DNA from: Candidatus Woesearchaeota archaeon
Lineage (GTDB): Archaea; Nanobdellota; Nanobdellia; Woesearchaeales; GW2011-AR4
Direction of reading: 5' to 3'
Assembly (NCBI GenBank): GCA_016181305.1
Contig: JACOZN010000010.1
Span: 66,814-130,813, forward strand
DNA: 64,000 nt
Numbering within the stretch: position 1 is the stretch's first letter; every line of letters begins with the position of its first letter. The notes under the pieces were generated by a model that was given only the letters and a program-made list of their open reading frames with translations, made no database searches and was not told where the DNA came from. A program made the translations under genes and the position numbers. Shown in pieces: positions 1 to 30,757 of the stretch.

Positions 1-2718
1 GCTTAGGTTTACCAGCTGGGCATTTACATTCTTTGCAGTTATGTAGTTGGGCCTTGGTGCATAGTAAGTAACAACATCCAAGTCACTTTCCGAGAAAATT
101 ATAGGCGGCAGCTCAATTTTGTTATTCAGCTCCCTTTCTTTTCTCCTTGAAGTTATTGCCCCTTTCCATTTCCCGGTAAGCTCCTCCCTGCCAAGATTTG
201 CATTGCTGAACAAGGCATCAGCATCCAGCATGGCAAGCTCCTGCCTTGTAAAGCCCATTTCCTCTCCGGCAAGCGCTATAAGCTCGAGCGCGTCGCTCAG
301 GTTTTTTGTGAACTGGAATTTTGAGAGCTCTCTTGCCTCCAAAGCTGATTTTGTGAATTCAAGCAGCTGCATTGCATCAAATTTCAGGCCTTCCTGCTTC
401 AGGATTTTTGTAATTCTCTCATAAGCATCATTGTCTACTATAAAAGAATCTGAATGATCTTCATGCAAATCAAAGCTTAGGGTTTTCAATAGCCCGGGGT
501 TTGACTCGTACCTTGGGCTTGTAATGTCGTAAGAGCCAGGCCTTAAGTGGTAGTATTTCTTTACGAAGTCGTCATGATTCATCGCGCCTGAGCCAAGCAG
601 CCTGAAGTCCCTGCTCATTTCCTTGGCGACAGTGCTTATGGAGTTCATGAAATTGTCATAGAAGACAGAGCCTATTATGCTTTTGCGCACAAGGCTTTTC
701 AATATTATTTTGCCGACAAATGCCAGCCTTGCCAGCCTTGAAAACTCAACTGTGCCCTTTTTCCTGCAGTCGCCAAGCAGGAATTTTGCATTGCCAAGCA
801 TGGCTTCAACTGAATTGCCATGGGCTGAATTTTTCCTTATCCTTTCCCTGTTTGATTCCATTTCCTTGAGGCGCTTCAAATCCTCCCGGATTGATTCTTT
901 GGAATGCACCACAAGGCTGTTGGTTAGCTTTATCAGTGCTTGCTTAAGCTCTTCAATATCCTCTCTTGCAAAGCCTGATTTTGAAAGCTCCTCTGACCTT
1001 TCGCCAAACGCCATGTCATAGCATGTAAACAAAACCTCAAACTCCACCTTGTCCTGCATATCCGGATTTTTCTCGAGCTTGTCGAGATAAAAGTCAACGA
1101 GCTTCTCGCGCAGCTTCTGCGACAATGCAGCAGGCACGAATGAGTTAAAAGTGTTCCTAACGTCGATATAAGGCTTGTTGCCGAGCAAAACAACAAGCTT
1201 TGCCGGGTTTACATTATAATATCCCTGCGATGTCCTTGCCTCGTGCCATGCGCTGCCTGTTATGAGATAGTCATAAAGCGAATAGTCAAGATAATTCGGG
1301 TTGTCGCCTATTATTTCAGCAGGATTCCAGTCCGGCATGTCGGCAAGGATTGTCCTTTTCCCGGCAAGATGGGGCTTTCTGGCTGAAAGCTCGGCGAACC
1401 TAGCCTTTAGCAAGTCAATCCTGCTTTTGACTTCAGCATCGTCAGTCTCGTATTTGTTGCTTGTTGTCAATGGCCTTACCTGAAAGATTATCACTTCGTT
1501 TTTGTTGTTTACTGCAAACTCTATGTCAAGCCCTATATTCGGGGCTATGCCTTCTATCTCTTTTACAGCTGCCAGCAGGTTTTGCATGCTGCCAGGCAGC
1601 GAGCTTATTTCAGCAAACCTTGATATTTTCATTGTATTGCTCTCGACGCCTTTTGTGACTGTATCTGATTTTCCGGTTGAGCTGTCATAATTGACTACAT
1701 AATAAGGAGAATTTTTTTCCAAGGATCTTGTAAGTATCACGCCGCTCATTACAATATTCTCTGTCTGCTGCTGAATAAGGACTTGGTTGAATGAATTCTC
1801 GGATGACTTGTGCTTGTACGAGCTTATTACTTTCTTTACAGCAGCCTCGATCTCCTTTGAATCTGCTGAGCCAACATTAAGCTCTGTTGCAAAATAGCCT
1901 GCCATTGAGCTGTCAAGAGTATCTTCGTTGACAGCAGAGCTCCTGACTGCGATTTTGAAAGGCTGGAATTCCTCTTTTACTCTTTTGAGCAGTTCGTCTT
2001 TTTTGTTCTTCCAGTCTGAGACAGAAAACACATATGATTTTTCAATCCTTGATTTTTTAAGCAACGGCTTGAGCGCAGTCAATGTGTCTGCTTTTGTCGA
2101 GATTATAACCTTGTTGCCTTTTTGGTACTCCTTGTCAAGCTTGACTTCCCCCTTTATCAATGACTCAAAGTGGATAACATCCTTCAGCTTGTCCTTGCTT
2201 TCTATAAGCTCTGTTATGATTTTATATGTTGAAAGCCTTCCATAATATGGATGTTGTATGACTTTGCCGCCTATTTGGCTTATGTATTCAGAGCCGTGCA
2301 CATAGCTTAAGTCAGAGCCGTGGACAAGTGTTATTTCTGCATCAGGGAACTCCTCGTGTATCTTCTTGAGGTTCTCTGTTGGGTCTCTTGAGTCCTGCAC
2401 CATAACCCTGTCAACGCAGTTGAGGCTTGAAATTATGGATTTTCTTTCCTGAAGATTGGCAATCGGCTTTGCCCTGTATTCCTCCACAGCCTTGTCAGTC
2501 AGCACACCAACTATATTATAGTCAGAAATAGACTTGGCAAACTGGATTGAATGCAGATGCCCGTAATGAAACAAATCTGCTGCAACTCCGCTGTATGCTA
2601 TTCTCTTTATAGATGCTCTTTTTACCTCTACTATATCGCCTTCCCTGATGCTTGAGCCTGTAGGAATTGTAATGCACAGCTGGTTATTGGATTTGTTTTT
2701 CCATACTATCTTTTTCAT
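1..2718 (-). CDS. Partial fusion protein (C-terminus lies beyond the left edge): HxGH cytidylyltransferase-like domain + PEP/pyruvate-binding (PPDK_N / PEP-synthase-type ATP-grasp) domain
   Basis: Absent from the ORF track because it runs off the window. Hand translation from ATG 2718-2716 stays open for 906 codons down to base 1 (MKKIVWKNKSNNQLCITIPTG...). 'IAYSGVAADLFHYGHLHSIQFAK' is an HxGH nucleotidyltransferase motif. 'VRSSAVNEDTLDSSMAGYFATELNV' is the RSS..ED...AG signature of PPDK/PEP-synthase N-terminal domains. Confidence 0.75.
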   Translation of the reverse strand, partial: MKKIVWKNKSNNQLCITIPTGSSIREGDIVEVKRASIKRIAYSGVAADLFHYGHLHSIQFAKSISDYNIVGVLTDKAVEEYRAKPIANLQERKSIISSLNCVDRVMVQDSRDPTENLKKIHEEFPDAEITLVHGSDLSYVHGSEYISQIGGKVIQHPYYGRLSTYKIITELIESKDKLKDVIHFESLIKGEVKLDKEYQKGNKVIISTKADTLTALKPLLKKSRIEKSYVFSVSDWKNKKDELLKRVKEEFQPFKIAVRSSAVNEDTLDSSMAGYFATELNVGSADSKEIEAAVKKVISSYKHKSSENSFNQVLIQQQTENIVMSGVILTRSLEKNSPYYVVNYDSSTGKSDTVTKGVESNTMKISRFAEISSLPGSMQNLLAAVKEIEGIAPNIGLDIEFAVNNKNEVIIFQVRPLTTSNKYETDDAEVKSRIDLLKARFAELSARKPHLAGKRTILADMPDWNPAEIIGDNPNYLDYSLYDYLITGSAWHEARTSQGYYNVNPAKLVVLLGNKPYIDVRNTFNSFVPAALSQKLREKLVDFYLDKLEKNPDMQDKVEFEVLFTCYDMAFGERSEELSKSGFAREDIEELKQALIKLTNSLVVHSKESIREDLKRLKEMESNRERIRKNSAHGNSVEAMLGNAKFLLGDCRKKGTVEFSRLARLAFVGKIILKSLVRKSIIGSVFYDNFMNSISTVAKEMSRDFRLLGSGAMNHDDFVKKYYHLRPGSYDITSPRYESNPGLLKTLSFDLHEDHSDSFIVDNDAYERITKILKQEGLKFDAMQLLEFTKSALEARELSKFQFTKNLSDALELIALAGEEMGFTRQELAMLDADALFSNANLGREELTGKWKGAITSRRKERELNNKIELPPIIFSESDLDVVTYYAPRPNYITAKNVNAQLVNLS

Positions 2719-2721
2719 ATT

Positions 2722-2731
2722 TCACTAGTGA
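2722..2731. promoter_or_regulatory. Perfect 10-bp palindrome TCACTAGTGA between the TATA box and the ATG of the 1..2718 gene (candidate operator/initiator region)
   Basis: Read directly from the sequence. A related ACTAGTGAATATG leader recurs at 24924-24936. Confidence 0.35.
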
Positions 2732-2743
2732 GACTAGTAAAAC

Positions 2744-2758
2744 TATTTAAAGATTACT
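2744..2758 (-). promoter_or_regulatory. BRE/TATA promoter element (minus-strand AGTAATCTTTAAATA)
   Basis: The TTTAAATA core ends 26 nt upstream of ATG 2718. The identical 15-mer recurs at 22362-22376. Confidence 0.5.
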
Positions 2759-2819
2759 ATTTATGATGTTATTTAATATATAGGTTAAAATATAGATGTT
2801 TAAGAATAGAATAGTTATG

Positions 2820-4109
2820 TTAAATTAAACCTTTATTTTTCAAGCTATTATAAACAATCCCAGCCACAACTTTGCTGCCATAGTTGGAGTAGTGCCCGCC
2901 GTACTTGTTGTCATCAGAGTAGATGCCATTCAGGTCCTTGCGGTTAATCAAGTTCTGTGTAAGGTCAATCACATTCAATTTTTTGCCTGCACTTTCAATG
3001 AAATCACCATAATACGGCTTTTTTCTTTTCCTGTTGAAAAGCAGGTCATCCTTCTGCGGCATCAGTAGGAAAACAGGAACGAATTTGTTTTTCCTGCCGT
3101 AATTTGAAAATTCCTCGAGCAGTTTTTCAAACAGCTTTACAGCGTATTTGTTTTTTTGGTAAAGCCTGCACCTCAGCTTCAGGTTAACCAACATAATGAC
3201 TTTCATCGGCGCTGGATAAGGCTGGAGCTTGCCTTCTTTCCTGAACAATTTGTCCCATAAAACCAAAAATATAAGCGGGATGTTCCTTAAGGGGCTGCCC
3301 AGAATCGATACAAAATACGGGAATCTTATCATCTCTTTCCTGAACTTGTTCTCGTAGAAGTAATCGTGCTTCCTTATCCGGGGCAGGTATTTTTTGTAAA
3401 CAAGAAATTTTTCCTCGCTGTCTATGAAATTCTTGACTAATTTCAGCTTTCCGTTTTTCAGGATAAACCTCGGCTTGAACCCGAATATGTTTCCAAATTC
3501 ATTGTAGTGCTTCCACATGTCCATTATCCTGACGATTGTCGAGGGGACAACAGCCATTATCACTATTTTTGTCCTGTTTCTTGGATATTCCCTTTTCAGC
3601 CTCAAAAATGCCTGATCAATGCCGTAATTGCCGACTCCAAAATTCAGTACATTGGTTTTTGTAAGCTCTGAAAGATGCCACTGGCATGTCTCGTTGTCAT
3701 TAACCTGCCTGCCGAATATGAAGGAATCGCCATAAAAGGATATTTTCTTTGGGAGCTTTTCATGCCCGGGGTTGCTTCTTGAGCCGTTTTTGCCAATATG
3801 GTATTTTGTTATCCCGAACTTGCCGATTTCATCTTTTTCAGTATTGGGCTTTCTTGCCCAGCCAATCTCAGGATCATAGCCGTGGCTTATGAACTTTTTG
3901 AGCCCCTCCCTGCTGAATTCAGGATGCTCGTCTTCGGGAGTTATAAGCCACTGGAAGCTTTTCTTCAGGCTCTTAATCAGGAAATACGACAGGATTTCCA
4001 GAACTAAAAGCGCTATGATATAATAGGCAAAAAGCCTGTAATATTTTATGAAAAGAAATATGCCTGCAAAAACAAGGACAGTGCATGCAATAAGCCTTTT
4101 TGTTTCCAT
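2820..4109 (-). CDS. Membrane-anchored SGNH/GDSL-type hydrolase-like protein (possible glycan O-acyl esterase/transferase)
   Basis: N-terminal hydrophobic helices (LIACTVLVFAGIFLFI, YYIIALLVLEILSYFLI). 'ISFYGDSFIFG' is GDS block I, 'NFGVGNYG' is block II, and C-terminal 'DDNKYGGHYS' is the D..H block. ATG verified at 4109-4107. Confidence 0.6.
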   Translation of the reverse strand: METKRLIACTVLVFAGIFLFIKYYRLFAYYIIALLVLEILSYFLIKSLKKSFQWLITPEDEHPEFSREGLKKFISHGYDPEIGWARKPNTEKDEIGKFGITKYHIGKNGSRSNPGHEKLPKKISFYGDSFIFGRQVNDNETCQWHLSELTKTNVLNFGVGNYGIDQAFLRLKREYPRNRTKIVIMAVVPSTIVRIMDMWKHYNEFGNIFGFKPRFILKNGKLKLVKNFIDSEEKFLVYKKYLPRIRKHDYFYENKFRKEMIRFPYFVSILGSPLRNIPLIFLVLWDKLFRKEGKLQPYPAPMKVIMLVNLKLRCRLYQKNKYAVKLFEKLLEEFSNYGRKNKFVPVFLLMPQKDDLLFNRKRKKPYYGDFIESAGKKLNVIDLTQNLINRKDLNGIYSDDNKYGGHYSNYGSKVVAGIVYNSLKNKGLI

Positions 4110-4126
4110 TTGCTGAAATTACCGAT

Positions 4127-5296
4127 TTATCTGTTTTTGTTTAAAAAATCAATTATGAACCTGGCGCCTGCGGCTGAAGAGCTGCCAAGGTTGAAAACGT
4201 GCTTTTTTCTTGCTTTTATAATTTCTTTCCTGTACTTAGCTTTTTCTTTTATCAGCTTTGCGGCTATTGAATCAATCTTGCCAACATTATCCGGATGCAA
4301 AACAAACCCAATTTTGTTCCTTATTTTGATGTCGATAGGCTCTGTGCTGAATTTTCTGTATTCGGGGTTGTTTATTTTTATGGGAGTGTCTATGAACAGC
4401 ACAGGCCTTTCTGTCCCGAAAGCATACTCATATACAACCCCTGACCAGTCGCTTATCATTATATCGGAGCTGTAAAAATTTTCAAGCGACGAGACATTCT
4501 CTTCTGCCATAAAATTTTTGAAATTCCTGAATTCATCATAAAGCGCGTCCAGAAATTCGGGATATTTTTTCCTTGTCATAGGGTGAGGCCTCAGAATCAC
4601 TTCATAGTTTGACTCGAGCAGTTTTCTTACCAGTTTGCTGCCGCAGATGTCCAGCATGCTTGTCCTTTCCCCCCACGGGCCCCAGCCAGGCGCAACAAGT
4701 ATCCTGGCCTTGAACTTTGTTTTCCTTTTTTTGCCTGCGCTTTTCCATTTTTTGTAGTCCCTATGTATTTTGTCCAGCCTGTAATAGCCGAATTTTACGA
4801 TTTTTCTTTCAGGCAGCTTGTAAAGCTCCTCCTCATTCCTCAGCTCCCTGATATGATGGGGGCCGACTGCAAACATTATGTCATAGTAAAAAAGCCCTCC
4901 ATGCCTTATTACATGGAAATAGCTGCCGATGTTGTGGAACAAATAAGCATGGCTGGCTCCCCTGACGGACTTTTTGATATGGAACTGGTTCAAGTCAGGC
5001 ATTGTCATCAGCACAAGCTTTGAGTCCAGAAGCAGCATGAAAAATCCAAGCAAATGCCTTATGTAGAATGCATTAACGTTCTTTCTTTTGCTGTGCAGCA
5101 TAGGGTCATTGCACTCTGATGTGACATAGCACAGCTTCATGTTGTGCCTGCCTGCAAGCTCGCCTATAATCCCCTCAAAAAAGGTGTAGTATGAGCTGTC
5201 TTCGGAATAAACCACAACATCCCTCTGGGCTTTGTCTAATTTGAAGAACCTGCGAAATTCCCTGAATTCCTTTGCAAACAGAGTCCATTCTTTCAT
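4127..5296 (-). CDS. CDP-glycerol/CDP-polyol phosphotransferase family protein (TagB/TagF-like)
   Basis: 'YEVILRPHPMT' and 'SDIMISDWSGVVYEYAFGTERPVLFID' resemble the conserved C-terminal core of teichoic-acid glycerophosphotransferases. The gene lies 17 nt from the downstream gene. Confidence 0.6.
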   Translation of the reverse strand: MKEWTLFAKEFREFRRFFKLDKAQRDVVVYSEDSSYYTFFEGIIGELAGRHNMKLCYVTSECNDPMLHSKRKNVNAFYIRHLLGFFMLLLDSKLVLMTMPDLNQFHIKKSVRGASHAYLFHNIGSYFHVIRHGGLFYYDIMFAVGPHHIRELRNEEELYKLPERKIVKFGYYRLDKIHRDYKKWKSAGKKRKTKFKARILVAPGWGPWGERTSMLDICGSKLVRKLLESNYEVILRPHPMTRKKYPEFLDALYDEFRNFKNFMAEENVSSLENFYSSDIMISDWSGVVYEYAFGTERPVLFIDTPIKINNPEYRKFSTEPIDIKIRNKIGFVLHPDNVGKIDSIAAKLIKEKAKYRKEIIKARKKHVFNLGSSSAAGARFIIDFLNKNR

Positions 5297-5309
5297 AATA
5301 ATTGGTTAA

Positions 5310-7193
5310 TTAATTTTGTTCGATTTTCTCGAGCTCTTTCTCCAAAAATCTTCTTTTTGTTATATTTACGTTATAAAGATTTAGTTTCTCCTGCGGGTCA
5401 GCATTGATATTAAACAGGGAGGAGTACATCCTGTTTTTCGGATCTTCCGGCTTTATCAGGAGAAGCTTCCACCCATCGTCAAAAATTGCCTGCTGCACGC
5501 TCTCATTCAGTTTTGGCCTTCCATAAAGCTCAGAAATCACGTAACTGCCGACAGGGCTTTTGTTAGTCTTAATCAGGGGGAGCAGGCTGGCGCTATCCAC
5601 ATTCCCAGGCGATTCGGTATTTGCCACGTCAAGCACTGTTGAAAATATGTCAATTGTGCTGACAGTCTCCTTTATCCTTTTTGGAGGCAGTTTGGCAGGG
5701 TAATAAATCAGCAAAGGAACGTGCACGTTCTCGTAGTATAAAGTATGGTGCATAAAGCCGCCGTGGTCGTAGAACTCCTCCCCGTGGTCTGCCGTGATTA
5801 TTATCATTGTCTTGTCCTTCAAGCCCAGCTGGTCAAGCTTGCCAATCAGCTTTCCTATGCTGCTGTCAACAGAGTAGATTTCAGCATCATAAAGCGCTTT
5901 TGCCATCTCTATTGTTGAGTTCGGAATCGGCAGGTACCTTTCAATTGCGTAAGAAGGCTTTGGCCTGTAAACAGTTGCAAGCTGTATGTCTTTGTTTGTT
6001 TTCCAGACGTCATAAAGTGTTATCCTTTCATTGGAGAACATGCTCCTGTATTGCAGGCCGCGGTTGTAGGGATGATGGGGCTCGATGTAATGAACCCACA
6101 AAAAGAATTTGTTGTTTGAATTCTTCTCCAGAAACCTGAAAGCATCTCGGTTTATTTCCTCGGCTTTCCTCTCGCCGTCAGTCCTGAAAATGAAAGTGCG
6201 CATTCCGGGCATATAGTCAAGCAGCCTCTTCATGCTGAACTTATTGTAAGTCTGCGTGTATTCAAAAAAATCAAGCCTGTCCCTGTATTCCATAAAGCCC
6301 TGTCCAGCCCCGTACTTTGACTTGATGTAAACAGCGCTAATCATGCCTGTTGTCACATAGCCCTTATCTTTCAGCAGTTCGCTGATAAGAAGCTCTTTTT
6401 CATTAATCACCGGATTCCTTAAGGTAGTATTATGGCGGTACTGGTATCTGCCGGTTAAAACAGACGCCATTGAAGTTTGGGTGTCCGGGCCGGGAGCTAT
6501 GGCATTGTCAAATACAACAGAATGTTCCGCCAATTTGTTGAGATTTGGCGTGGTGTTCAGTTGATAGCCATAAAGAGAAAGGTGGTCAGCCCTTGTCGCG
6601 TCTATTGTTATCAGGATTATATTTGAGTAGTCTTTAAGCCTGCTGTCTGATTTGTAACCCGGGCTGTAATGCAGCATGTACACGTCAATAAAAAGCGACA
6701 CTGCAGCAAATACAAACATTGCAAAGATATAGTTTCCCAAAAACTTTTTTACTCTTGGCTTTTTCAGTTGCAGGAGAATCTGTGACAAAACATTCTTTCC
6801 TTTTAGGAAAATGGCAAAGCAGAATATCGCTGAAACTGCAACAACAAGCAGGCTGAGGCTGAACGATGCAGGCTCTATTATGCTCAAAGGGCTCAGCAGG
6901 AAGTTGTTTACAAGCACCAGGCCATAGAACATCAAAATAAACGATATTGTGCCAGCAACATAAGCATTCCTGGCTTGTTCCTGCTTTAGGGGTTTTCCGA
7001 ACAACCAAACAAAAAATCCAAAAGCCAGAAAGAACAGCACAGACGCAGCAATCGATATAAACAATGCCTGGTAAAGCTCGAACCATTCGAAGCTCCATGA
7101 GAATATTCTGGCCAGTACATCAACTGTGCCGATTAAAGAGCCGGCCAGCAATCCTGCTGCGGCTGCGAGCTTTAAATGCCTTGTCAATTTCAT
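5310..7193 (-). CDS. Polytopic membrane protein with alkaline-phosphatase/sulfatase-fold domain (LtaS / phosphoglycerol- or phosphoethanolamine-transferase-like)
   Basis: About 5-6 N-terminal hydrophobic segments precede 'IILITIDATRADHLSLYGY...PDTQTSMASVLTGRY' and 'IIITADHGEEFYDHGG'. There is no C/S-x-P-x-R sulfatase motif, and Thr occupies the nucleophile position. Confidence 0.65.
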   Translation of the reverse strand: MKLTRHLKLAAAAGLLAGSLIGTVDVLARIFSWSFEWFELYQALFISIAASVLFFLAFGFFVWLFGKPLKQEQARNAYVAGTISFILMFYGLVLVNNFLLSPLSIIEPASFSLSLLVVAVSAIFCFAIFLKGKNVLSQILLQLKKPRVKKFLGNYIFAMFVFAAVSLFIDVYMLHYSPGYKSDSRLKDYSNIILITIDATRADHLSLYGYQLNTTPNLNKLAEHSVVFDNAIAPGPDTQTSMASVLTGRYQYRHNTTLRNPVINEKELLISELLKDKGYVTTGMISAVYIKSKYGAGQGFMEYRDRLDFFEYTQTYNKFSMKRLLDYMPGMRTFIFRTDGERKAEEINRDAFRFLEKNSNNKFFLWVHYIEPHHPYNRGLQYRSMFSNERITLYDVWKTNKDIQLATVYRPKPSYAIERYLPIPNSTIEMAKALYDAEIYSVDSSIGKLIGKLDQLGLKDKTMIIITADHGEEFYDHGGFMHHTLYYENVHVPLLIYYPAKLPPKRIKETVSTIDIFSTVLDVANTESPGNVDSASLLPLIKTNKSPVGSYVISELYGRPKLNESVQQAIFDDGWKLLLIKPEDPKNRMYSSLFNINADPQEKLNLYNVNITKRRFLEKELEKIEQN

Positions 7194-7295
7194 TAAACAT
7201 TACCTTTTGCAGGCTTAATATGAGTCGATAAAGCTCATAGCAAAAGACAGGCATTTTAAAATGTTTTGCTTTGATTTGCAGGACATAATTTGCAC

Positions 7296-8147
7296 TTACC
7301 TTTCCAGAAGTATGTTGGCATACCTGCTTCCCTGGCATAATCTAATCAGCGAGGAGCTGCCAATCGGCTCTGTCCGCTTCTTTTTCTCGTTTATCAGCCT
7401 GATTTTGAATCCATGGCTTTCCAGCCTGCTTAAGAACTCCTGAGGGGAATCGCCGCATTTCATCAAGCCCTTTGGATAAAACTCGCACACCAGCCTTATG
7501 ACTTTACTTGACTCCAGCAATTTGGCCATGCCCTTCACTGCCAGAAACTCGGCGCCTTCAGCGTCAATCTTGACAAAATCTGGCTTTGCCTTGTTTCTGA
7601 CGAAATTGTCTATCGTTATTGAATCCACTTCTATGGGCTTGCTTCCCGCGCCAAGATCTGACATGCTGTGGTCTCCCTTATAGGCTTCTGACACAAAAAA
7701 TTTCACTTTTCCGGATTTGTCAGAAACGGCTTTTTTGACTGCTCTGACGTTTTTGCAGCTGTTTGCTTTTATGTTTTTTACGAGCAGCCTGTAGTTCTCA
7801 GGCTCCGGCTCGAATGCGTAAACCACCCCATTTTTGCCAACCAAATCTGAGAAAATTAAAGTGTAATAGCCTATGTTTGCCCCTATATCATAAACAACCA
7901 TTCCCTTTCTGACAATCCTGCCCAGCAGCTTTGCCTCAAAAGCCTCAAGCGCAGAAAACTTCCACAGCAGCAGCGCGAAAATCCTGTCAAGCGTGCCTGC
8001 ATACATTTTGTGCATGCCGACTTTTACCATGATGTCTTTTCCAGGGCTAAAATGCCTGTTGACAAAACTGGCTATTTTTTTAGCCATGCCACTGGAAGCA
8101 AGGCTCACAATAAATCCCGAAGCGCCATTCAGAACATTGAAGCCCAT
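7296..8147 (-). CDS. FkbM-family SAM-dependent methyltransferase
   Basis: 'VVYDIGANIGYYTLIFS', 'VYAFEPEPENY' and 'PDFVKIDAEGAEF' match the FkbM (Methyltransf_21) pattern. Confidence 0.7.
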   Translation of the reverse strand: MGFNVLNGASGFIVSLASSGMAKKIASFVNRHFSPGKDIMVKVGMHKMYAGTLDRIFALLLWKFSALEAFEAKLLGRIVRKGMVVYDIGANIGYYTLIFSDLVGKNGVVYAFEPEPENYRLLVKNIKANSCKNVRAVKKAVSDKSGKVKFFVSEAYKGDHSMSDLGAGSKPIEVDSITIDNFVRNKAKPDFVKIDAEGAEFLAVKGMAKLLESSKVIRLVCEFYPKGLMKCGDSPQEFLSRLESHGFKIRLINEKKKRTEPIGSSSLIRLCQGSRYANILLER

Positions 8148-19655: not shown

Positions 19656-21245
19656 TTAGCCAGATTCCTTCAGGGATTTATAAAGCATGCTCTTTCCAAG
19701 GTAGTACAGCATCAGGTCAAATGGGTCGTTGTGCAGCGGCGCCATGTTCAGGAATATGAGGGAGGTGAGTATTTTTACCTTGCTGATATCAAAATTGTTT
19801 CTTTTCAGGAACCTTTCATATTCTTCCTTTGCCTCGAGCAAATCGCTTTTTATGTAGTAATTGTAATAGACGCTTGAGCCGCTTGTGTCAAAAGAGAACA
19901 TGCCCTCTTTAATTAGCTGGTAAGAGATAATAACGCCGCCGTAAAGCTTTGCAAGGTCATAGTACAGGTCGCCTGCCTTCATAAACCCACCAAAGTCCTG
20001 GCGCCAGTCCAGCAGGATAAATTTTTGAAGGTGGCTTTTCTCGTCTCGGGCAGCCAGAATATTGTCAAACTGCAGGTCTCCGTGGAACATTACAGGGATT
20101 CCGTCGCATACGCTGTCCCAGTTTATTTTCTCCAGAAGCTCCTTAAGCATCGGGACTGATACGCCGTTGATGTTGTTTGAATGGTCAATCACCCCTGTTT
20201 TGCCGTAAAAGCGCTCCAGCCTGTTCATGGTCTTGTCGTAGTAAAATTTGCGGCATGCTTTCCTGAATTCTTCAAGCTCCTCTTTCTGCAGCTCCGGATT
20301 CTTCCAGAGGTTTGTTTTTGCCCAATAAAGGAAGTCGGTGACTATCTGGGTGTTAAGGACGCTGTAGAGCACGTTGCCGTCTATTTTTCTGTACGCAAAG
20401 AAGCTGCCTTTTTGCGACTCTATCCCGGGCACAAGCCCTTTCAGGTAGCGGGCGCGCTCGCACCTTTTTCTTGTAACTTCAGGATCTGCAAAATATTTTA
20501 TAACCTTGCCGTTGATAAAGTAAATGAACCCGTCTGCCTTGCTGAAGTCAAATTTCTGCTCCCCTCCTGAAAAGTTCTTGTTGGTCTCCGCATAATTTTC
20601 AAAAGTCCCTGTGTCAAACCATGTGAATCCTATCGGGACAAGCTTTTTTTCTATGAGCTTCTTGAAGCCGTTTGAAACCTGGATTTCCCCGCTTACCGGC
20701 TCCTTGTTTTTTTCCAAGGCCTCAAAAAAAGCCCCGTAATCATAAACACCTGCAAGGCCTATGAACGCGTACTTGTTGTCTGTTTTAATCTTGTCGTCCA
20801 GCTGGTAAATAAGCTCGTTCCTGATTTTCACAGTGCAGTATTTCTCTGTTTCCTTTACAGGCGCTATGCCAAACCAGTTTTTGTCTGGAACAGGCACATC
20901 TTCAAGCACTATTGTGTCGGCAGCAAAGAATATGAAAGGGCACTGGAGCAAGTCCCTGCACTGCAGCAAAGAATACCCAGGACCGGTCCCGGGACCCATG
21001 TACCTGTCCACTGCAACAAAGCTGAATTTTCTCTCAGGATAAGCTATTGACAGGTAGTCTATTACAGTCTCCTTCTTATGCCCGACAGCTACGACTATCT
21101 CTATATCTTTTGGAAATTTCTCGACAATGTAAGAAATCACGCCCTTGAAATTCACAGGGAGTATTGCCTTGTTGACATGGTTGTAGATATCGCCCATTCT
21201 GCTTCCTATGCCTGCCGCCAAAATGCATACTTTGTAGTTCATCAT
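19656..21245 (-). CDS. Bifunctional sugar-phosphate nucleotidyltransferase (N-terminal) / APH-fold sugar or small-molecule kinase (C-terminal)
   Basis: N-terminal 'CILAAGIGSRMG...NKAILPV' is the NTP-transferase G-rich loop. C-terminal 'MFHGDLQFDNIL' and 'ILLDWRQDFGG' are the catalytic and DFG-like loops of aminoglycoside/choline-kinase-fold kinases. Confidence 0.7.
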   Translation of the reverse strand: MMNYKVCILAAGIGSRMGDIYNHVNKAILPVNFKGVISYIVEKFPKDIEIVVAVGHKKETVIDYLSIAYPERKFSFVAVDRYMGPGTGPGYSLLQCRDLLQCPFIFFAADTIVLEDVPVPDKNWFGIAPVKETEKYCTVKIRNELIYQLDDKIKTDNKYAFIGLAGVYDYGAFFEALEKNKEPVSGEIQVSNGFKKLIEKKLVPIGFTWFDTGTFENYAETNKNFSGGEQKFDFSKADGFIYFINGKVIKYFADPEVTRKRCERARYLKGLVPGIESQKGSFFAYRKIDGNVLYSVLNTQIVTDFLYWAKTNLWKNPELQKEELEEFRKACRKFYYDKTMNRLERFYGKTGVIDHSNNINGVSVPMLKELLEKINWDSVCDGIPVMFHGDLQFDNILAARDEKSHLQKFILLDWRQDFGGFMKAGDLYYDLAKLYGGVIISYQLIKEGMFSFDTSGSSVYYNYYIKSDLLEAKEEYERFLKRNNFDISKVKILTSLIFLNMAPLHNDPFDLMLYYLGKSMLYKSLKESG

Positions 21246-22414: not shown

Positions 22415-23536
22415 TTATTGCATACCCTGAAGCTGCTCCCACAACTGACTTTCTATCGCGGGCTCTTTCCCAGCGAGATTTTTGGCTTCGGACTTGTCTT
22501 TCTCAAGATTGTAAAGCTCTTTCTTTTTACTTGTCTCGTTGTATATTAGCTTCCAATTGTTTGTGCGCACAGCCTTAACGTTATGCTTTTCCGGAGAAGG
22601 TGTTGGTCCGCCCAAGCCGCCTGTTTCTGAGTATGCAATCCTGTCCTCTTCTTTTCCGTGAATAATATCCAAAAATGATTTTCCCTGAACCGGCTTGTAG
22701 CCGTTTTTTTCTATTATATCAAGAATTTCAAGTATGGTTGGCATTAAGTCAATGCTCCTTATCTGGGAGTTTATTATTTTGCCTTTTGGGAACTGCTTCC
22801 CTATTGCATAAAGAAAGCATCTTATTGTGTAATCATAAAGATACACTCCATATGCCTTTTCGCCAATCCTGTCTCCCACACTCACTCCATGGTCCGTGAA
22901 AATAAAAATTATTGAATCGTCCCATAAGCCAAGCTCTTTTATTCTGCCTAGAATTATCTTGAGGTAGTCGGCGCTTGACCGCAATGAGTTTAGATAATTC
23001 TTAAGATTTGCTTCCTTGTTCTTAAAGTATTCCTCATCAAAATCAGTGTATTTCTTGATTACATTTTTGAGAAGCTCGGGGTGAATCTTGACATAATCCA
23101 GGTAGAGAAAAAAAGGCTGCTTTGGCTTTATCTGGTTGAGGACTTCCAAGTGCCTTGCGGTTAAGTCATCTTTGAACTCATCGTAAACTCTTACCTTGTC
23201 AAAGCCCTGGGTTGGAAGCACATTTTCATTGTGAATGTCTGTTTCTGTGCAGTAGCCATTGCCTTTGAGGTACTGCGCCAGCGTGAAGCACCCCTTCTTG
23301 TCAAAGCCGAAGCTTTTGTAGTAGCCGTTGACGCCGTTTGAATTGCCGTACATGCCCGAGAATGTGGCGTGCAAAGAAGCGATAGTATAAGGAGCGTAAG
23401 TAATCATTGACGGGAAGAACGTTGATTCTTTTTTCAGCTCCTCGTAGATTGGAACTTTGCCTATCAGGTCATGCCTGGCGCCATCTACCAGAATCATAAT
23501 TACGTTCGGTTTTTTCTTTTTGAAGAGGCTCAGCAT
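22415..23536 (-). CDS. Alkaline-phosphatase superfamily (sulfatase-fold) protein, cytoplasmic-looking, Thr at nucleophile position
   Basis: 'VIMILVDGARHD', 'APYTIASLHATFSGMYG' and 'IIFIFTDHGVSVGD'. No N-terminal hydrophobic segment and no CxPxR motif. Confidence 0.65.
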   Translation of the reverse strand: MLSLFKKKKPNVIMILVDGARHDLIGKVPIYEELKKESTFFPSMITYAPYTIASLHATFSGMYGNSNGVNGYYKSFGFDKKGCFTLAQYLKGNGYCTETDIHNENVLPTQGFDKVRVYDEFKDDLTARHLEVLNQIKPKQPFFLYLDYVKIHPELLKNVIKKYTDFDEEYFKNKEANLKNYLNSLRSSADYLKIILGRIKELGLWDDSIIFIFTDHGVSVGDRIGEKAYGVYLYDYTIRCFLYAIGKQFPKGKIINSQIRSIDLMPTILEILDIIEKNGYKPVQGKSFLDIIHGKEEDRIAYSETGGLGGPTPSPEKHNVKAVRTNNWKLIYNETSKKKELYNLEKDKSEAKNLAGKEPAIESQLWEQLQGMQ

Positions 23537-23549
23537 TTTAATTGAGGCT

Positions 23550-24926
23550 TTATTCCATATAGCCCAGCTCTCTCAGCAGCTTTTTTGATTTATCATCCAT
23601 GCTTGACAAGTCAGCATCACCTTCATTGCTTTGCTGCTTTAAAAAATCCAGCATCTTTTGTTTCATTTCAGATGCAACTTCTTTTTCTTTATTTATCAGA
23701 TTATTTGTCTCATTGGGGTCGTCCTTTAGGTTGTAAAGCTCAAAAATATCGTTTTGTGGGTGCGGAATGTAGATGAGTTTCCAGTCTCCTATTATCATCG
23801 TACGCCATTTTCCCCTTATTCCCGGGAAGAATATTCTCTTATGCCCCTTGAAATGCTCTTCAAGGCTCTCGGCAAAGACAAACTCCCTGCCTTTTAGGGT
23901 TTCTCCCTTAATTAAAGGCAGCAGGCTCATGCCGTCCACCCTGTCAATCAAAGGCACGTTGAGCATGTCCATTATCGTGGGCATTATGTCGATGTTCTGC
24001 ACTCTTTGCTTTATAATCTTGCCCTTTGGAACCAGTTTTGGATGCCTGAATATTAAAGGTATCCTCAAGCTCGGCTCATAGAGGCTTGCAGCATGCTGGA
24101 AGTAAAAATCATGCTCGCCGAAATTCTCGCCATGGTCCGATGTAAGAATGACTAAAGTTTCATCTTCAAGCCCAGTCTCCTTTAACGTGTCCAGGATTCT
24201 GCCAATCTGGGTGTCAACATATTTTATAGCTCCGTCATAATGCGCTATTGCATGCTCCATCTCCTCTTTTGGAAACTTGACATGCCCGAACAAGATGTCG
24301 CCTCTTGCCAGTTTCCCATCGGCTAATGTGTTGAAGTCGTGGCTGCCTTTATAGCCGGAATCAAACATATGTTCATAGGGCTTTGGAGGCCAGTAAGGCC
24401 AGTGCAGGTCTATGGGATGGTGGCATAAAAAGAATTTTTCATTGGAGTGCTTTTTTATCCACCTTATCGCTATTTGAGTATGCTGCTCAGTCAGGCCAAG
24501 AAAATTCTTGGGATTTAATATTTTATAAATGCCCCTTTTGATTTTGTTTTCAATTTTCCACGTGAGCGGATTGAACTCCTGAAACCCTTTTTTCATGGCT
24601 GGCTCGCTCAGAACGTCTACATCAAGGTATGCATTCCTGAAGCCGTGGCTTTGAAGTATTTCAGGCAATGTTGTTACAGACTCATTGAACTTGTTGTTGG
24701 AGACAAGCCTTATGCCATGGTTATGCGGATAGACTCCTGTGAATGCGGACAATATGGATGAATTTGTCCATGGAAAAGGGCAATACGCGTTCGAGAAGCT
24801 CGTGCCTTCTTTTGCCAGCCTGTCTATGTTCGGGCTTGTAGCCCTTGCATAGCCGTTTGCGCTTAAATGGTCAGGGCGCAGTGCATCCACTATAAACATG
24901 ATTATGTTCATTTTGCCTAAGGGCAT
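23550..24926 (-). CDS. Sulfatase-fold (alkaline-phosphatase superfamily) protein, non-canonical active-site motif
   Basis: 'IIMFIVDALRPDHLSANGY', 'PWTNSSILSAFTGVYP' and 'LTSDHGENFGEHDFYFQH'. The track start at 24932 is GTG, and the first ATG is 24926. Confidence 0.7.
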   Translation of the reverse strand: MPLGKMNIIMFIVDALRPDHLSANGYARATSPNIDRLAKEGTSFSNAYCPFPWTNSSILSAFTGVYPHNHGIRLVSNNKFNESVTTLPEILQSHGFRNAYLDVDVLSEPAMKKGFQEFNPLTWKIENKIKRGIYKILNPKNFLGLTEQHTQIAIRWIKKHSNEKFFLCHHPIDLHWPYWPPKPYEHMFDSGYKGSHDFNTLADGKLARGDILFGHVKFPKEEMEHAIAHYDGAIKYVDTQIGRILDTLKETGLEDETLVILTSDHGENFGEHDFYFQHAASLYEPSLRIPLIFRHPKLVPKGKIIKQRVQNIDIMPTIMDMLNVPLIDRVDGMSLLPLIKGETLKGREFVFAESLEEHFKGHKRIFFPGIRGKWRTMIIGDWKLIYIPHPQNDIFELYNLKDDPNETNNLINKEKEVASEMKQKMLDFLKQQSNEGDADLSSMDDKSKKLLRELGYME

Positions 24927-24962
24927 ATTCACTAGTTTAAAAATCTATATTAAGCATGCAAA

Positions 24963-29872: not shown

Positions 29873-30757
29873 ATGGAAAAAGCCGATAATATAACTTATA
29901 AGGCGATAAGGGCAAAGCAGGCTGCTGACTTAAAATCAAAAAGCATAAGGTACATGGTTTACAGGCGCTTCTCAACGCCCTTTACTTATGCATTTGTAAA
30001 GTTGGGAATGTCGCCAGCTTCTGTGTCCATATTAAATTTTTTTGTTCCTTTGGTGGGCTTTTATTTTTTAATAAGGGGCTCTTACGCATCGATGATTATT
30101 GGATTATCTTTTTTCATGTTATTTAAAACGCTTGACTGCTGCGACGGCGAAGTTGCCAGGATACAAAACCCGAAGGCAATGGACCCCATGCACAGAAGAT
30201 TGGAAGGGGCTTATTTCGATGGGCTCTCAAATTACATATACGCTGTTTTTCTGGGGATGGGCCTTGGAATCGGGCTTTCTGAGATGTACGGCAGCAGGCT
30301 TTTTGTCAGCCTTGGGGTGATTTTGACAATTTTTTTGACGCTTGAGGTAGCAATAATTGATGTCATGAAATCGTATTTCAGAAGAGGGCTGATAGAGAGG
30401 AAATTGATGAAGATAACTGATAAATATGCGATGGAAAAGCTGATAGGGAAAATAAACAGTATAGAAAGTGGGGAAGTAAGCATATTCAAAAAATTGCTTC
30501 GGGTATATCCGACACCAGGCTTGCTTTATGCAACTGAATTTTTTGCACTTGTATTGATTGTAATAACATTGGCGGAATATGCCATGATAAAAAATTTTAA
30601 TGCGGGGTTTATATTTTATCAGTTTAGCATACTTGCATTATACCTTTTAATAGTGACTGTTGTAAGGGCGATGAACATTTCAATATTTGTATATAAAATG
30701 AAAAAGCACGAGTACATGACAAGTTTGCTGGAAGAGCTTCAGGGCAAAAAGTTATAG
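29873..30757 (+). CDS. CDP-alcohol phosphatidyltransferase-like integral membrane protein with a deviant signature
   Basis: 'LDCCDGEVARIQNPKAMDPMHRRLEGAYFDGLSNY' has DGxxAR present, but the spacer to G is about 15 aa rather than 8, and the last Asp of GxxxDxxxD is Asn. Several hydrophobic segments are present. Confidence 0.5.
   Translation: MEKADNITYKAIRAKQAADLKSKSIRYMVYRRFSTPFTYAFVKLGMSPASVSILNFFVPLVGFYFLIRGSYASMIIGLSFFMLFKTLDCCDGEVARIQNPKAMDPMHRRLEGAYFDGLSNYIYAVFLGMGLGIGLSEMYGSRLFVSLGVILTIFLTLEVAIIDVMKSYFRRGLIERKLMKITDKYAMEKLIGKINSIESGEVSIFKKLLRVYPTPGLLYATEFFALVLIVITLAEYAMIKNFNAGFIFYQFSILALYLLIVTVVRAMNISIFVYKMKKHEYMTSLLEELQGKKL

What the first reader, a model, noticed from the sequence alone, without database searches (positions are those of the whole stretch)
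2820..7193. Teichoic-acid-like phosphotransfer operon (LtaS-like, TagF-like, SGNH) in an archaeon
Three co-directional genes with 13-17 nt gaps encode a polytopic sulfatase-fold protein with Thr at the nucleophile position (LtaS/EptA-like), a TagB/TagF-type CDP-polyol phosphotransferase, and a membrane-anchored SGNH hydrolase. With the adjacent CDP-forming fusion and the deviant CDP-alcohol transferase at 29873, this looks like machinery for polyol-phosphate or phospho-headgroup polymers or decorations. That chemistry is classically bacterial (wall/lipoteichoic acids) and poorly documented in archaea.
Basis: partly seen in the sequence, partly recalled or inferred. Interest (0 to 1): 0.6.

Follow-up and report, generated by a model that had tools for sequence, protein, structure and literature searches.

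The report
Archaeal phosphoramidate head-group transfer genes
Three tightly packed genes of a tiny groundwater archaeon (a teichoic-acid-type transferase, a membrane enzyme shaped like a sulfatase but with a threonine active site, and a membrane-tethered SGNH enzyme) most likely attach a rare phosphorus-nitrogen (phosphoramidate) group, made by the genes next door, to the cell envelope, not a teichoic-acid-like polymer.

Summary
Three minus-strand genes with 13- and 17-nt gaps encode:
- a 5-TM sulfatase-fold protein with Thr238 at the nucleophile position;
- a PF04464 TagF-fold protein;
- a membrane-anchored protein with an SGNH fold (by structure, not by Pfam).

The teichoic-acid reading is only partly right. 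The next three genes downstream are a cytidylyltransferase fused to a Cj1418-type glutamine kinase, a Cj1417-like hydrolase and a LicC/Cj1416-like cytidylyltransferase. This is the Campylobacter route to cytidine diphosphoramidate. The assembly (78% complete) has no TagD equivalog and no PEP mutase.

- **TagF-like family:** elsewhere it sits beside phosphonate genes in 31 of 78 loci, and beside a glutamine-kinase set in 4-5. A polytopic sulfatase-domain protein lies nearby in 47 of 78.
- **SGNH-like family:** it travels with the glutamine-kinase set in 62 of 80 metagenome loci and with Thr-type sulfatase-fold proteins in 50 of 80.

Best reading (about 0.5): this is the transfer half of a P-N head-group decoration system. 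The head group is loaded at the inner membrane face and handled outside by the Thr enzyme. No step has been tested biochemically.

This scan has met TagF-like/phosphoramidate and TagF/LtaS-like modules before on other DNA. I found no published description.

The parts
5310..7193 (-). P0003, 627 aa. Polytopic (about 5 TM) membrane protein with an outward-facing sulfatase-fold domain and Thr238 as nucleophile. Its architecture is EptA/LtaS-like.
   Evidence: PF00884 at E 9e-53 plus SGSH_C. The EptA-family model NF028537 matches residues 20-247 at E 2e-10. The cytoplasmic loops carry +3 and +7 charges, so the C-terminal domain is predicted outside. Thr238 aligns to the FGly position. In 32 homologs that column is T in 23 and S in 8, and the +4 position is never R.
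4127..5296 (-). P0002, 389 aa. TagF-fold phosphotransferase that uses a CDP/CMP-activated head group. It is the only PF04464 gene in the genome.
   Evidence: PF04464 at 49.9 bits against a cut-off of 22.1. The AF2 model has pLDDT 92.5, and Foldseek puts TagF 3L7x first at E 1e-12, followed by TarL. H121, R236-P237-H238, D283 and S285 are invariant in 28 homologs.
2820..4109 (-). P0001, 429 aa. SGNH-fold protein anchored by N-terminal TM helices, with the catalytic domain predicted on the cytoplasmic side.
   Evidence: The AF2 model has pLDDT 93.8. Foldseek hits are CgnD, GDSL proteins, PatB, TesA and DltD. G127-D128-S129, N156, G160 and H406 are invariant. Most homologs have one TM helix followed by the basic LRK motif.
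7296..8147 (-). FkbM-family SAM methyltransferase, co-directional, 102 nt upstream. Possible head-group methylase.
   Evidence: PF05050 at E 9e-22 and TIGR01444. Methyltransferases recur in related loci: FkbM in 8 and Methyltransf_31 in 12 of 80 SGNH loci.
1..2718 (-). P0004. Fom1-type cytidylyltransferase domain fused to a Cj1418-type glutamine kinase, 995 aa in all, running off the window. It is followed outside the window by a Cj1417-like C26 hydrolase and a LicC/Cj1416-like NTP transferase.
   Evidence: NF004508 at 858 bits against a cut-off of 501. The N-terminal domain hits 5x3d at E 7e-13. A phospho-His motif GGVASH lies near residue 951. For the downstream genes: PF07722 with NF045546 as best hit, and PF12804.
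7194..7295 (-). Intergenic stretch upstream of P0003 with A/T-rich TATA-like boxes. Possible own promoter for the three-gene unit.
   Evidence: Read directly from the sequence. Inference only.
2719..2819 (-). Intergenic stretch upstream of P0004 with a TTTAAATA box about 30 nt before the ATG. The donor genes may be a separate transcription unit.
   Evidence: Read directly from the sequence. Inference only.

Best explanation
The three genes are the transfer and processing half of a system that decorates the envelope with a small phosphoramidate-type (P-N) head group. The three genes downstream make a cytidine-activated donor: glutamine kinase, then cytidylyltransferase, then gamma-glutamyl hydrolase, giving cytidine diphosphoramidate. 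The TagF-like enzyme is a peripheral membrane protein. It would use this donor as TagF uses CDP-glycerol, moving the head group onto a membrane-bound acceptor (a lipid or lipid-linked glycan) and releasing CMP. After export, the polytopic Thr enzyme, whose domain faces outward like EptA or LtaS, would pass the head group through a Thr238 intermediate to its final acceptor, or would trim it. The SGNH-like enzyme, tethered at the inner membrane face, is a dedicated partner of the glutamine-kinase pathway, and its chemistry is unknown. A methyltransferase may O-methylate the product. Shown here: the folds, motifs, predicted topology and gene linkage. Inferred: the donor, the acceptors and the order of steps.
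For: Donor genes: NF004508 at 858 bits. NF045546 'gamma-glutamyl-CDP-amidate hydrolase' is the best hit of the C26 protein, full length, at 104 bits against 57 for the next model. An NTP_transf_3 gene follows. In related loci the same families occur with an APS-kinase in the Campylobacter order and with matching sizes (PMC7901785).

TagF-like family: a TagF fold. Neighbours in 78-80 genome loci are PEP mutase/Ppd/Fe-ADH with fused cytidylyltransferases (31 of 78), glutamine-kinase sets (4 complete and 1 partial), and polytopic sulfatase-domain proteins (47 of 78 within 8 kb, 31 of 78 within two genes). The window's protein lies in a clade of six with SH-aLRT 100, four of them kinase-linked. 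YidC fusions show the family works at the membrane.

SGNH-like family: 80 metagenome loci hold the glutamine kinase in 62, the C26 hydrolase in 61, NTP3 in 65 and Thr-sulfatase-fold homologs in 50. Counted by clusters at 70% identity, 39 of 47 hold the kinase. In 301 genomes of the phylum, 4 of the 5 with the SGNH ortholog have the kinase, against 10 of 301 overall.

Where the TagF-like gene is absent, the Thr enzymes are soluble (88 of 91 without a TM helix). Where it is present, they are polytopic.

Precedent: the TagF-like FtaD transfers phospho-N-methylthreonine from a CDP-amino acid to a glycan (bioRxiv 10.64898/2026.02.12.704994).
Against: No biochemistry exists for any of these families. 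The TagF-like family is linked to phosphonate genes far more often than to the kinase, so its donor here rests on adjacency alone. TATA-like boxes suggest that the donor genes and the three genes are separate transcripts. In the phylum, only 2 of 10 kinase-bearing genomes have the TagF-like gene and only 4 of 10 have the SGNH ortholog. One relative (G008/L031) pairs the TagF-like and the 5-TM Thr enzyme with an ATP-sulfurylase and no kinase. The Cj1417-like hit is below its curated cut-off. Identity of NF004508 with Cj1418 is inferred from length and architecture, not tested against the Campylobacter sequence. No Cj1415-type 3'-kinase was found. Topologies come from hydropathy and charge counts only. 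Related loci are not phylogenetically independent.
Confidence: 0.5

Rival explanations
1. Teichoic-acid-like machinery. The TagF-like enzyme polymerises or adds glycerol- or ribitol-phosphate from a CDP-polyol made by the fused cytidylyltransferase. The LtaS-like enzyme extends or transfers polyol-phosphate outside, and the SGNH protein handles ester substituents as DltD or PatB do.
For: PF04464 membership and a TagF/TarL fold. A 5-TM architecture with a Thr nucleophile, as in LtaS. DltD and PatB are among the SGNH fold matches. An HxGH cytidylyltransferase domain lies next door.
Against: No TagD equivalog was found: the best TIGR01518 score is 40.6 bits against a cut-off of 165. The fused cytidylyltransferase resembles the Fom1 and ethanolamine-phosphate enzymes more than TagD (51 and 47 bits against 25), and it is fused to a glutamine kinase. 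None of 78 related TagF-like loci showed a polyol pathway as a recurrent neighbour. The SGNH domain is predicted cytoplasmic, unlike DltD and PatB.
Confidence: 0.1
2. The three genes are unrelated neighbours in a glycan island. The TagF-like enzyme uses another CDP-activated group made elsewhere in the island, for example by the NTP-transferase/kinase fusion at 19656-21245. P0003 is an outward-facing hydrolase (phosphodiesterase or esterase). The SGNH protein is an ordinary O-acyl esterase or transferase.
For: The island holds other activation genes: an NTP_transf_3 plus EcKL kinase fusion. Possible separate promoters. Within the phylum the genes occur apart from each other and from the kinase. 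The P0003 catalytic domain is closest to hydrolytic sulfatases and phosphonate monoester hydrolases.
Against: Gaps of 13 and 17 nt argue for co-translation as one unit. Two pairings recur across distant phyla in varied gene orders: SGNH-like with the kinase set, and TagF-like with a polytopic sulfatase-domain protein.
Confidence: 0.2
3. The Thr sulfatase-fold enzyme, not the TagF-like one, is the phosphoramidate transferase. It would attack cytidine diphosphoramidate directly, as nucleotide pyrophosphatases attack nucleotides. The TagF-like enzyme would add a different group.
For: Soluble Thr sulfatase-fold genes sit inside the kinase operon in about 50 marine loci that lack any TagF-like gene. 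The chemistry is natural for the alkaline-phosphatase superfamily.
Against: In this archaeon the domain is predicted outside the cell, away from nucleotide donors. No second donor pathway for the TagF-like enzyme was found: no PEP mutase and no TagD. In the phylum, the 380-aa soluble type goes with the kinase in only 2 of 7 genomes.
Confidence: 0.15

Closest known systems
Campylobacter jejuni O-methyl phosphoramidate (MeOPN) pathway, Cj1415-Cj1422 (PMC11800397, PMC7901785)
   Same: It has a Cj1418-type three-domain kinase, a class-I amidotransferase-type hydrolase whose best model is gamma-glutamyl-CDP-amidate hydrolase, a LicC-type cytidylyltransferase, and SAM methyltransferases nearby. The kinase, hydrolase and transferase genes are in the same order.
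   Different: No Cj1415-type 3'-kinase was found in this genome. An extra Fom1-type cytidylyltransferase is fused to the kinase. The candidate transfer enzymes are a TagF-like protein, a Thr sulfatase-fold protein and an SGNH-like protein. According to an earlier scan note that I did not check against a Campylobacter sequence, Cj1421/Cj1422 are DUF8374 plus DUF2972 proteins. P0002 hits only PF04464.
TagF/TagB/TarL teichoic-acid CDP-polyol phosphotransferases (PF04464; PDB 3L7I, 8VA1)
   Same: Fold, Pfam membership and conserved His/Asp/Ser motifs. Likely peripheral membrane action.
   Different: It is a short, single-module protein of 389 aa. There are no CDP-glycerol or CDP-ribitol genes. Its relatives lie in phosphonate and phosphoramidate clusters. 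Nothing indicates polymerase activity.
FtaD (CD0244) of Clostridioides difficile, a TagF-like CDP-N-methylthreonine:GlcNAc phosphotransferase (bioRxiv 10.64898/2026.02.12.704994)
   Same: A TagF-like enzyme that adds one small, non-polyol phospho-head group from a CDP-activated donor, made by adjacent genes, as a post-glycosylation modification. A methyltransferase sits in the same locus.
   Different: The donor and acceptor differ. Sequence relatedness to FtaD was not tested here because no sequence was on hand. FtaD has no partner with a sulfatase fold.
EptA/MCR-1 and LtaS, polytopic alkaline-phosphatase-superfamily transferases with a Thr nucleophile
   Same: About five N-terminal TM helices, an outward catalytic domain, a Thr nucleophile and conserved metal ligands. 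EptA-family models give weak hits over the TM region.
   Different: The catalytic domain, with its SGSH_C subdomain, is closer to arylsulfatases, choline sulfatases and phosphonate monoester hydrolases. It scores far below the curated EptA and LtaS cut-offs. The donor lipid is unknown.
Phosphonate (HEP/AEP/methylphosphonate) tailoring clusters with Fom1/PntC-type cytidylyltransferases (PMC6697681, PMC8942020)
   Same: The same TagF-like family, polytopic sulfatase-domain partners and Fom1-type cytidylyltransferase domains occur there, including a Nitrosopumilus locus (L082).
   Different: This genome has no PEP mutase. The activation cassette is the glutamine-kinase set instead.

Membership tests
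TagF/TagB family (Pfam PF04464 Glyphos_transf) | Match to the family HMM above the curated cut-off | tested here: met
   49.9 bits against a cut-off of 22.1, residues 157-302. It is the only such gene in the genome.
TagF/TagB family (Pfam PF04464 Glyphos_transf) | Two-lobed GT-B-like TagF fold | tested here: met
   The AF2 model has pLDDT 92.5. The top ten Foldseek hits are TagF chains at E 1e-12 to 2e-11 with TM 0.56-0.59, followed by TarL.
TagF/TagB family (Pfam PF04464 Glyphos_transf) | Use of a CDP-glycerol or CDP-ribitol donor, with a TagD or TarI/TarJ partner | tested here: not met
   No TIGR01518 match above 40.6 bits against a cut-off of 165.4, in a genome 78% complete. Enzyme specificity itself cannot be tested here.
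LtaS/EptA-type polytopic phosphotransferases | N-terminal multi-TM domain with an extracytoplasmic alkaline-phosphatase-superfamily domain | tested here: met
   Five hydrophobic segments. The loops at 63-76 and 131-155 carry 3 and 7 K+R, which places the C-terminal domain outside. This is prediction only.
LtaS/EptA-type polytopic phosphotransferases | Thr nucleophile | tested here: met
   Thr238 aligns with the nucleophile of sulfatases. Thr or Ser occupies this column in 31 of 32 homologs.
LtaS/EptA-type polytopic phosphotransferases | Match to curated EptA/CptA/MCR models above their cut-offs | tested here: not met
   The best score is 39.6 bits against cut-offs of 404-1250.
Type I (formylglycine) sulfatases | C/S-x-P-x-R maturation motif | tested here: not met
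   The motif reads T-Q-T-S-M. The +4 position is never Arg in 32 homologs. PF00884 itself is met at E 9e-53.
SGNH/GDSL hydrolases | SGNH fold with block I GDS, block II Gly, block III Asn and block V His | tested here: met
   Foldseek hits GDSL proteins, PatB and TesA at probability 1.0. G127-D128-S129, N156, G160 and H406 are invariant. Pfam GDSL models do not match. NCBIfam gives only E 0.004.
C. jejuni MeOPN donor pathway | Cj1418-type glutamine kinase (ATP-grasp plus phospho-His domains) | tested here: met
   NF004508 at 858 bits, positions 6-788 of 789. A GGVASH motif is present. That NF004508 equals Cj1418 is inferred from length (779 aa, PMC7901785), not tested.
C. jejuni MeOPN donor pathway | Cj1417 gamma-glutamyl-CDP-amidate hydrolase | tested here: inconclusive
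   NF045546 is the best hit and covers the full length, but scores 104 bits against a cut-off of 250.
C. jejuni MeOPN donor pathway | Cj1415 cytidine diphosphoramidate 3'-kinase (APS-kinase family) | tested here: not met
   The best PF01583 match is 20.4 bits, below the cut-off, on another contig. The genome is 78% complete.
C. jejuni MeOPN donor pathway | Cj1421/Cj1422-type transferase (DUF2972, according to an earlier scan note) | tested here: inconclusive
   PF11186 was not found in the genome, but the control rang in no genome either.

The most novel reading that the evidence does not exclude
The TagF-like enzyme and the polytopic Thr/Ser sulfatase-fold enzyme form a general 'load inside, transfer outside' pair found in both bacteria and archaea. 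It would install whatever small nucleotide-activated phosphorus head group the adjacent cassette supplies (phosphonate, phosphoramidate, perhaps others) onto envelope polymers through a head-group lipid. The SGNH-like family would be a new enzyme dedicated to P-N (glutamine-kinase) pathways. If so, DPANN archaea carry phosphoramidate-decorated surfaces.
Probability: 0.25. Interest if true: 0.8.

Novelty: new variant of a known kind. Interest (0 to 1): 0.62.

Why it matters
Phosphoramidate sugar decoration has been shown experimentally only in Campylobacter, and even there the transfer step has not been characterised biochemically. This locus points to a different and widespread set of transfer enzymes: TagF-like, Thr sulfatase-fold and SGNH-like. 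It links P-N and P-C (phosphonate) surface chemistry through shared transfer machinery. It also predicts such decorations on the surface of DPANN archaea, whose envelopes mediate their dependence on host cells. The candidate enzymes can be expressed and tested with synthetic cytidine diphosphoramidate.

Tried and rejected
- **PDB sequence searches:** they found nothing for P0001 or P0002.
- **Testing P0002 against Cj1421/Cj1422:** no Campylobacter sequence or genome could be reached. The PF11186 search was uninformative because the control rang nowhere. The search for longer relatives found only YidC fusions.
- **Kinase-centred sample in another phylum:** a sample centred on G301 gave 1 hit in 401 genomes and added nothing.
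- **Soluble Thr enzymes as kinase-specific partners:** the phylum search weakens this idea, with only 2 of 7 genomes holding both.
- **SGNH protein as a replacement for the missing 3'-kinase:** rejected, because 8 related loci have both an APS-kinase and the SGNH gene.
- **Papers not held:** PMC5629633 and PMC5938747.
no Pfam hit at E 0.001.
Full report
**1. Observation.**
The minus strand carries three ORFs: 5310-7193 (627 aa), 4127-5296 (389 aa) and 2820-4109 (429 aa). The gaps between them are 13 and 17 nt.

- **627-aa protein (P0003).** It matches PF00884 at E 9e-53 and the SGSH_C subdomain. It has five hydrophobic segments before residue 175. The loops at 63-76 and 131-155 carry 3 and 7 basic residues, so the catalytic domain is predicted outside the cell. 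Thr238 aligns with the Ser/Cys that becomes formylglycine in arylsulfatases 3ed4 and 6hr5, and the Pro and Arg of C/S-x-P-x-R are replaced by Thr and Met. In 32 homologs that column is Thr in 23 and Ser in 8, and Arg never occupies +4, while the metal ligands D198, D469 and H470 are conserved.
- **389-aa protein (P0002).** It matches PF04464 above the cut-off. Its model has pLDDT 92.5, and its best PDB matches are TagF, then TarL.
- **429-aa protein (P0001).** It has no Pfam hit. Its model (pLDDT 93.8) matches SGNH/GDSL proteins, including PatB, TesA and DltD. GDS, Asn, Gly and His are invariant in 38 homologs.

**2. Surroundings.**
I fetched the genome flank.
- The ORF that runs off the window at 1-2718 is 995 aa long. 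Residues about 38-170 form an HxGH cytidylyltransferase domain closest to the Fom1 domain (5x3d) and to ethanolamine-phosphate cytidylyltransferase.
- The rest scores 858 bits on NF004508, positions 6-788 of 789, against a cut-off of 501. It ends in a GGVASH phospho-histidine motif.
- A 229-aa Peptidase_C26 protein follows with a 4-nt overlap. Its best NCBIfam model is 'gamma-glutamyl-CDP-amidate hydrolase': 104 bits over the full length, below the cut-off of 250, with the next model at 57 bits.
- Seven nt later comes a 263-aa NTP_transf_3 protein closest to LicC.

This is the family set, gene order and size pattern of Campylobacter mpnA-mpnB-mpnC (779, 200 and 253 aa; PMC7901785). Together with Cj1415, those enzymes make CDP-phosphoramidate 3'-phosphate from glutamine, ATP and CTP (PMC11800397).

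The assembly is 78% complete. In it I found no APS-kinase above the cut-off, no PEP mutase and no TagD equivalog. An FkbM methyltransferase lies 102 nt upstream of the three genes.

**3. The TagF-like family.**
It is large: 1715 hits in the protein search, and matches in 558 species genomes. I clustered the neighbours in 80 genome loci.

| Recurrent neighbour | Loci |
|---|---|
| Cytidylyltransferase-PEP mutase fusion | 23 |
| PEP mutase-NTP_transf_3 fusion | 9 |
| Phosphonopyruvate decarboxylase | 26 |
| Fe-alcohol dehydrogenase | 27 |
| Sulfatase-domain family A | 27 |
| Sulfatase-domain family B | 12 |

- The first four rows make up the 2-hydroxyethylphosphonate route.
- A polytopic sulfatase-domain protein lies within 8 kb in 47 of 78 loci and within two genes in 31 of 78. 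These proteins have mostly 4-6 predicted TM helices.
- The complete glutamine-kinase set occurs in four loci (Woesearchaeota, Methanosarcinales, Kiritimatiellae and Taylorbacteria), and a partial set in one more.
- One locus is from Nitrosopumilus and includes PEP mutase, the decarboxylase and Fe-ADH.
- In a tree, the window's protein falls in a six-member clade with SH-aLRT 100. The clade mixes archaea and bacteria, and four of its members are kinase-linked. The donor type changes several times across the family.
- Longer relatives are fused to a YidC-type membrane domain.
- In one Woesearchaeal relative (L031/G008), the TagF-like gene and a 5-TM Thr enzyme (36% identical to P0003) flank a pyruvate-kinase-barrel protein and an ATP-sulfurylase, with no kinase set.

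So the TagF-like enzyme and a polytopic sulfatase-fold enzyme look like a constant pair, joined to varying activation cassettes.

**4. The SGNH-like family.**
The representative library holds 4732 relatives at E 0.001. In the 80 closest metagenome loci (47-89% identity, GC 0.21-0.54), tblastn finds the following.

| Partner | Loci (of 80) |
|---|---|
| Glutamine kinase | 62 |
| C26 hydrolase | 61 |
| NTP_transf_3 | 65 |
| P0003 homologs | 50 |
| TagF-like | 2 |

- Counted as 47 clusters at 70% identity, 39 hold the kinase.
- Gene orders differ between loci, co-directional in some and convergent in others.
- Eight loci also have an APS-kinase next to the SGNH gene, which gives the full Cj1418-Cj1415 order. 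Twelve have a SAM methyltransferase just upstream.
- The sulfatase-fold genes in these loci come as about 380-aa and about 450-aa forms with a Thr at the nucleophile position. Of 91 such genes, 88 have no predicted TM helix.
- Most SGNH-like homologs have one N-terminal TM helix followed by a basic LRK motif. The window's protein has a second helix and a basic N-terminus. Both arrangements predict a cytoplasmic catalytic domain.

**5. Paralogs in the window.**
The ORFs at 22415-23536 and 23550-24932 are soluble PF00884 proteins. The first is 39-46% identical to the marine 380-aa type. The second is 33% identical to the P0003 catalytic domain.

**6. Distribution in the phylum.**
I searched 301 genomes.

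| Gene | Genomes | Of these, with the kinase |
|---|---|---|
| Glutamine kinase | 10 | - |
| SGNH ortholog | 5 | 4 |
| TagF-like | 3 | 2 |
| 380-aa Thr enzyme | 7 | 2 |

- Eight of the nine other kinase loci keep the fused cytidylyltransferase, the hydrolase and the NTP transferase. The ninth (G299) matched only a partial kinase. Flanking genes vary.
- The module is patchy and accessory, which fits horizontal transfer.
- G244 is unpublished.

**7. Mechanism.**
- **Shown:** folds, motifs, predicted topology and gene linkage.
- **Inferred:** the donor is cytidine diphosphoramidate or its precursor CDP-glutamine. The TagF-like enzyme moves the head group onto a membrane-bound acceptor at the inner face, releasing CMP. 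The outward-facing Thr enzyme then passes it on, or trims it, through a Thr238 intermediate, as EptA does with phosphoethanolamine from a lipid. The SGNH-like enzyme is a pathway-specific partner of unknown chemistry. Its many conserved Arg, Lys and His residues hint at an anionic substrate. A methyltransferase may complete an O-methyl phosphoramidate.
- **Support for the two-sided model:** the TagF-like gene goes with polytopic Thr enzymes, and its absence goes with soluble ones. Some P0003 relatives are fused to a PF03706 (YbhN-type) membrane domain.

**8. Rivals and limits.**
- The teichoic-acid reading lacks a polyol donor pathway.
- An 'unrelated neighbours' reading is not excluded. TATA-like boxes precede both 7193 and 2718, and the genes occur apart in some relatives.
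- Related loci are not independent samples.
- NF004508 was not compared with Cj1418 itself.

**9. Novelty.**
- In the papers I could search, a phosphoramidate pathway outside Campylobacter is proposed only for Borg elements, from predicted structures (bioRxiv 10.1101/2024.11.05.622173). The phosphonate surveys do not mention the TagF-like family.
- This scan has already met two related modules on other DNA, and it has noted this stretch before. One joins a TagF-like gene to a phosphoramidate donor pathway. The other joins a YidC-TagF fusion to an LtaS-like enzyme.
- New here are the strong link between the SGNH-like family and the kinase pathway, and the correlation between soluble or polytopic Thr enzymes and absence or presence of the TagF-like gene.

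Noticed in passing
window 22415-24932 (-): Two soluble sulfatase-fold proteins with a Thr at the nucleophile position, 373 and 460 aa. The first matches the 380-aa form that sits inside glutamine-kinase operons in marine metagenomes. The second is a paralog of the P0003 catalytic domain (33% identity). In the phylum, the 373-aa type goes with the kinase in only 2 of 7 genomes.
   Followed up: partly
window 19656-21245 (-): An NTP_transf_3 domain fused to an EcKL-type kinase domain (LicC/LicA-like), beside a GatZ-like gene. This is a second possible source of a nucleotide-activated head group in the same island.
   Followed up: no
   Followed up: partly
L031 9986-15309 (Woesearchaeota ARS1199; same genome as G008): A TagF-like gene and a 5-TM Thr sulfatase-fold gene flank a pyruvate-kinase-barrel protein and a PUA/ATP-sulfurylase protein. 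This would be a third kind of activation cassette for the same transfer pair.
   Followed up: partly
proteins P0275-P0282 and P0394, P0398, P0401: Relatives of the TagF-like protein are fused to a YidC/Oxa1 domain (PF02096). Relatives of P0003 are fused to a PF03706 (YbhN-type) membrane domain.
   Followed up: no
L082 (Nitrosopumilus MAG): A member of the TagF-like family lies among a cytidylyltransferase-PEP mutase fusion, phosphonopyruvate decarboxylase, Fe-ADH and a polytopic sulfatase-domain gene. This is the gene set expected for the archaeal hydroxyethyl/methylphosphonate ester pathway.
   Followed up: no
P0001 residue 38 (window about 3996-3998): A glutamate inside the TM helix is invariant in all 38 aligned SGNH-like homologs. 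This suggests contact with a membrane partner or a charged lipid head group.
   Followed up: no
L018, L066, L074, L080, L085, L086 and others: Small two-TM proteins of 93-97 aa with an AY(I/M)D motif lie next to the TagF-like gene in bacterial loci. No counterpart ORF is visible in the 13- to 17-nt gaps of the archaeal locus.
   Followed up: no
L137, L140, L141: Some SGNH/glutamine-kinase loci also carry split TPP-enzyme genes. A cluster in other SGNH loci has a weak PEP-mutase-superfamily (HpcH/HpaI) hit. Phosphonate and phosphoramidate genes may therefore share loci.
   Followed up: no
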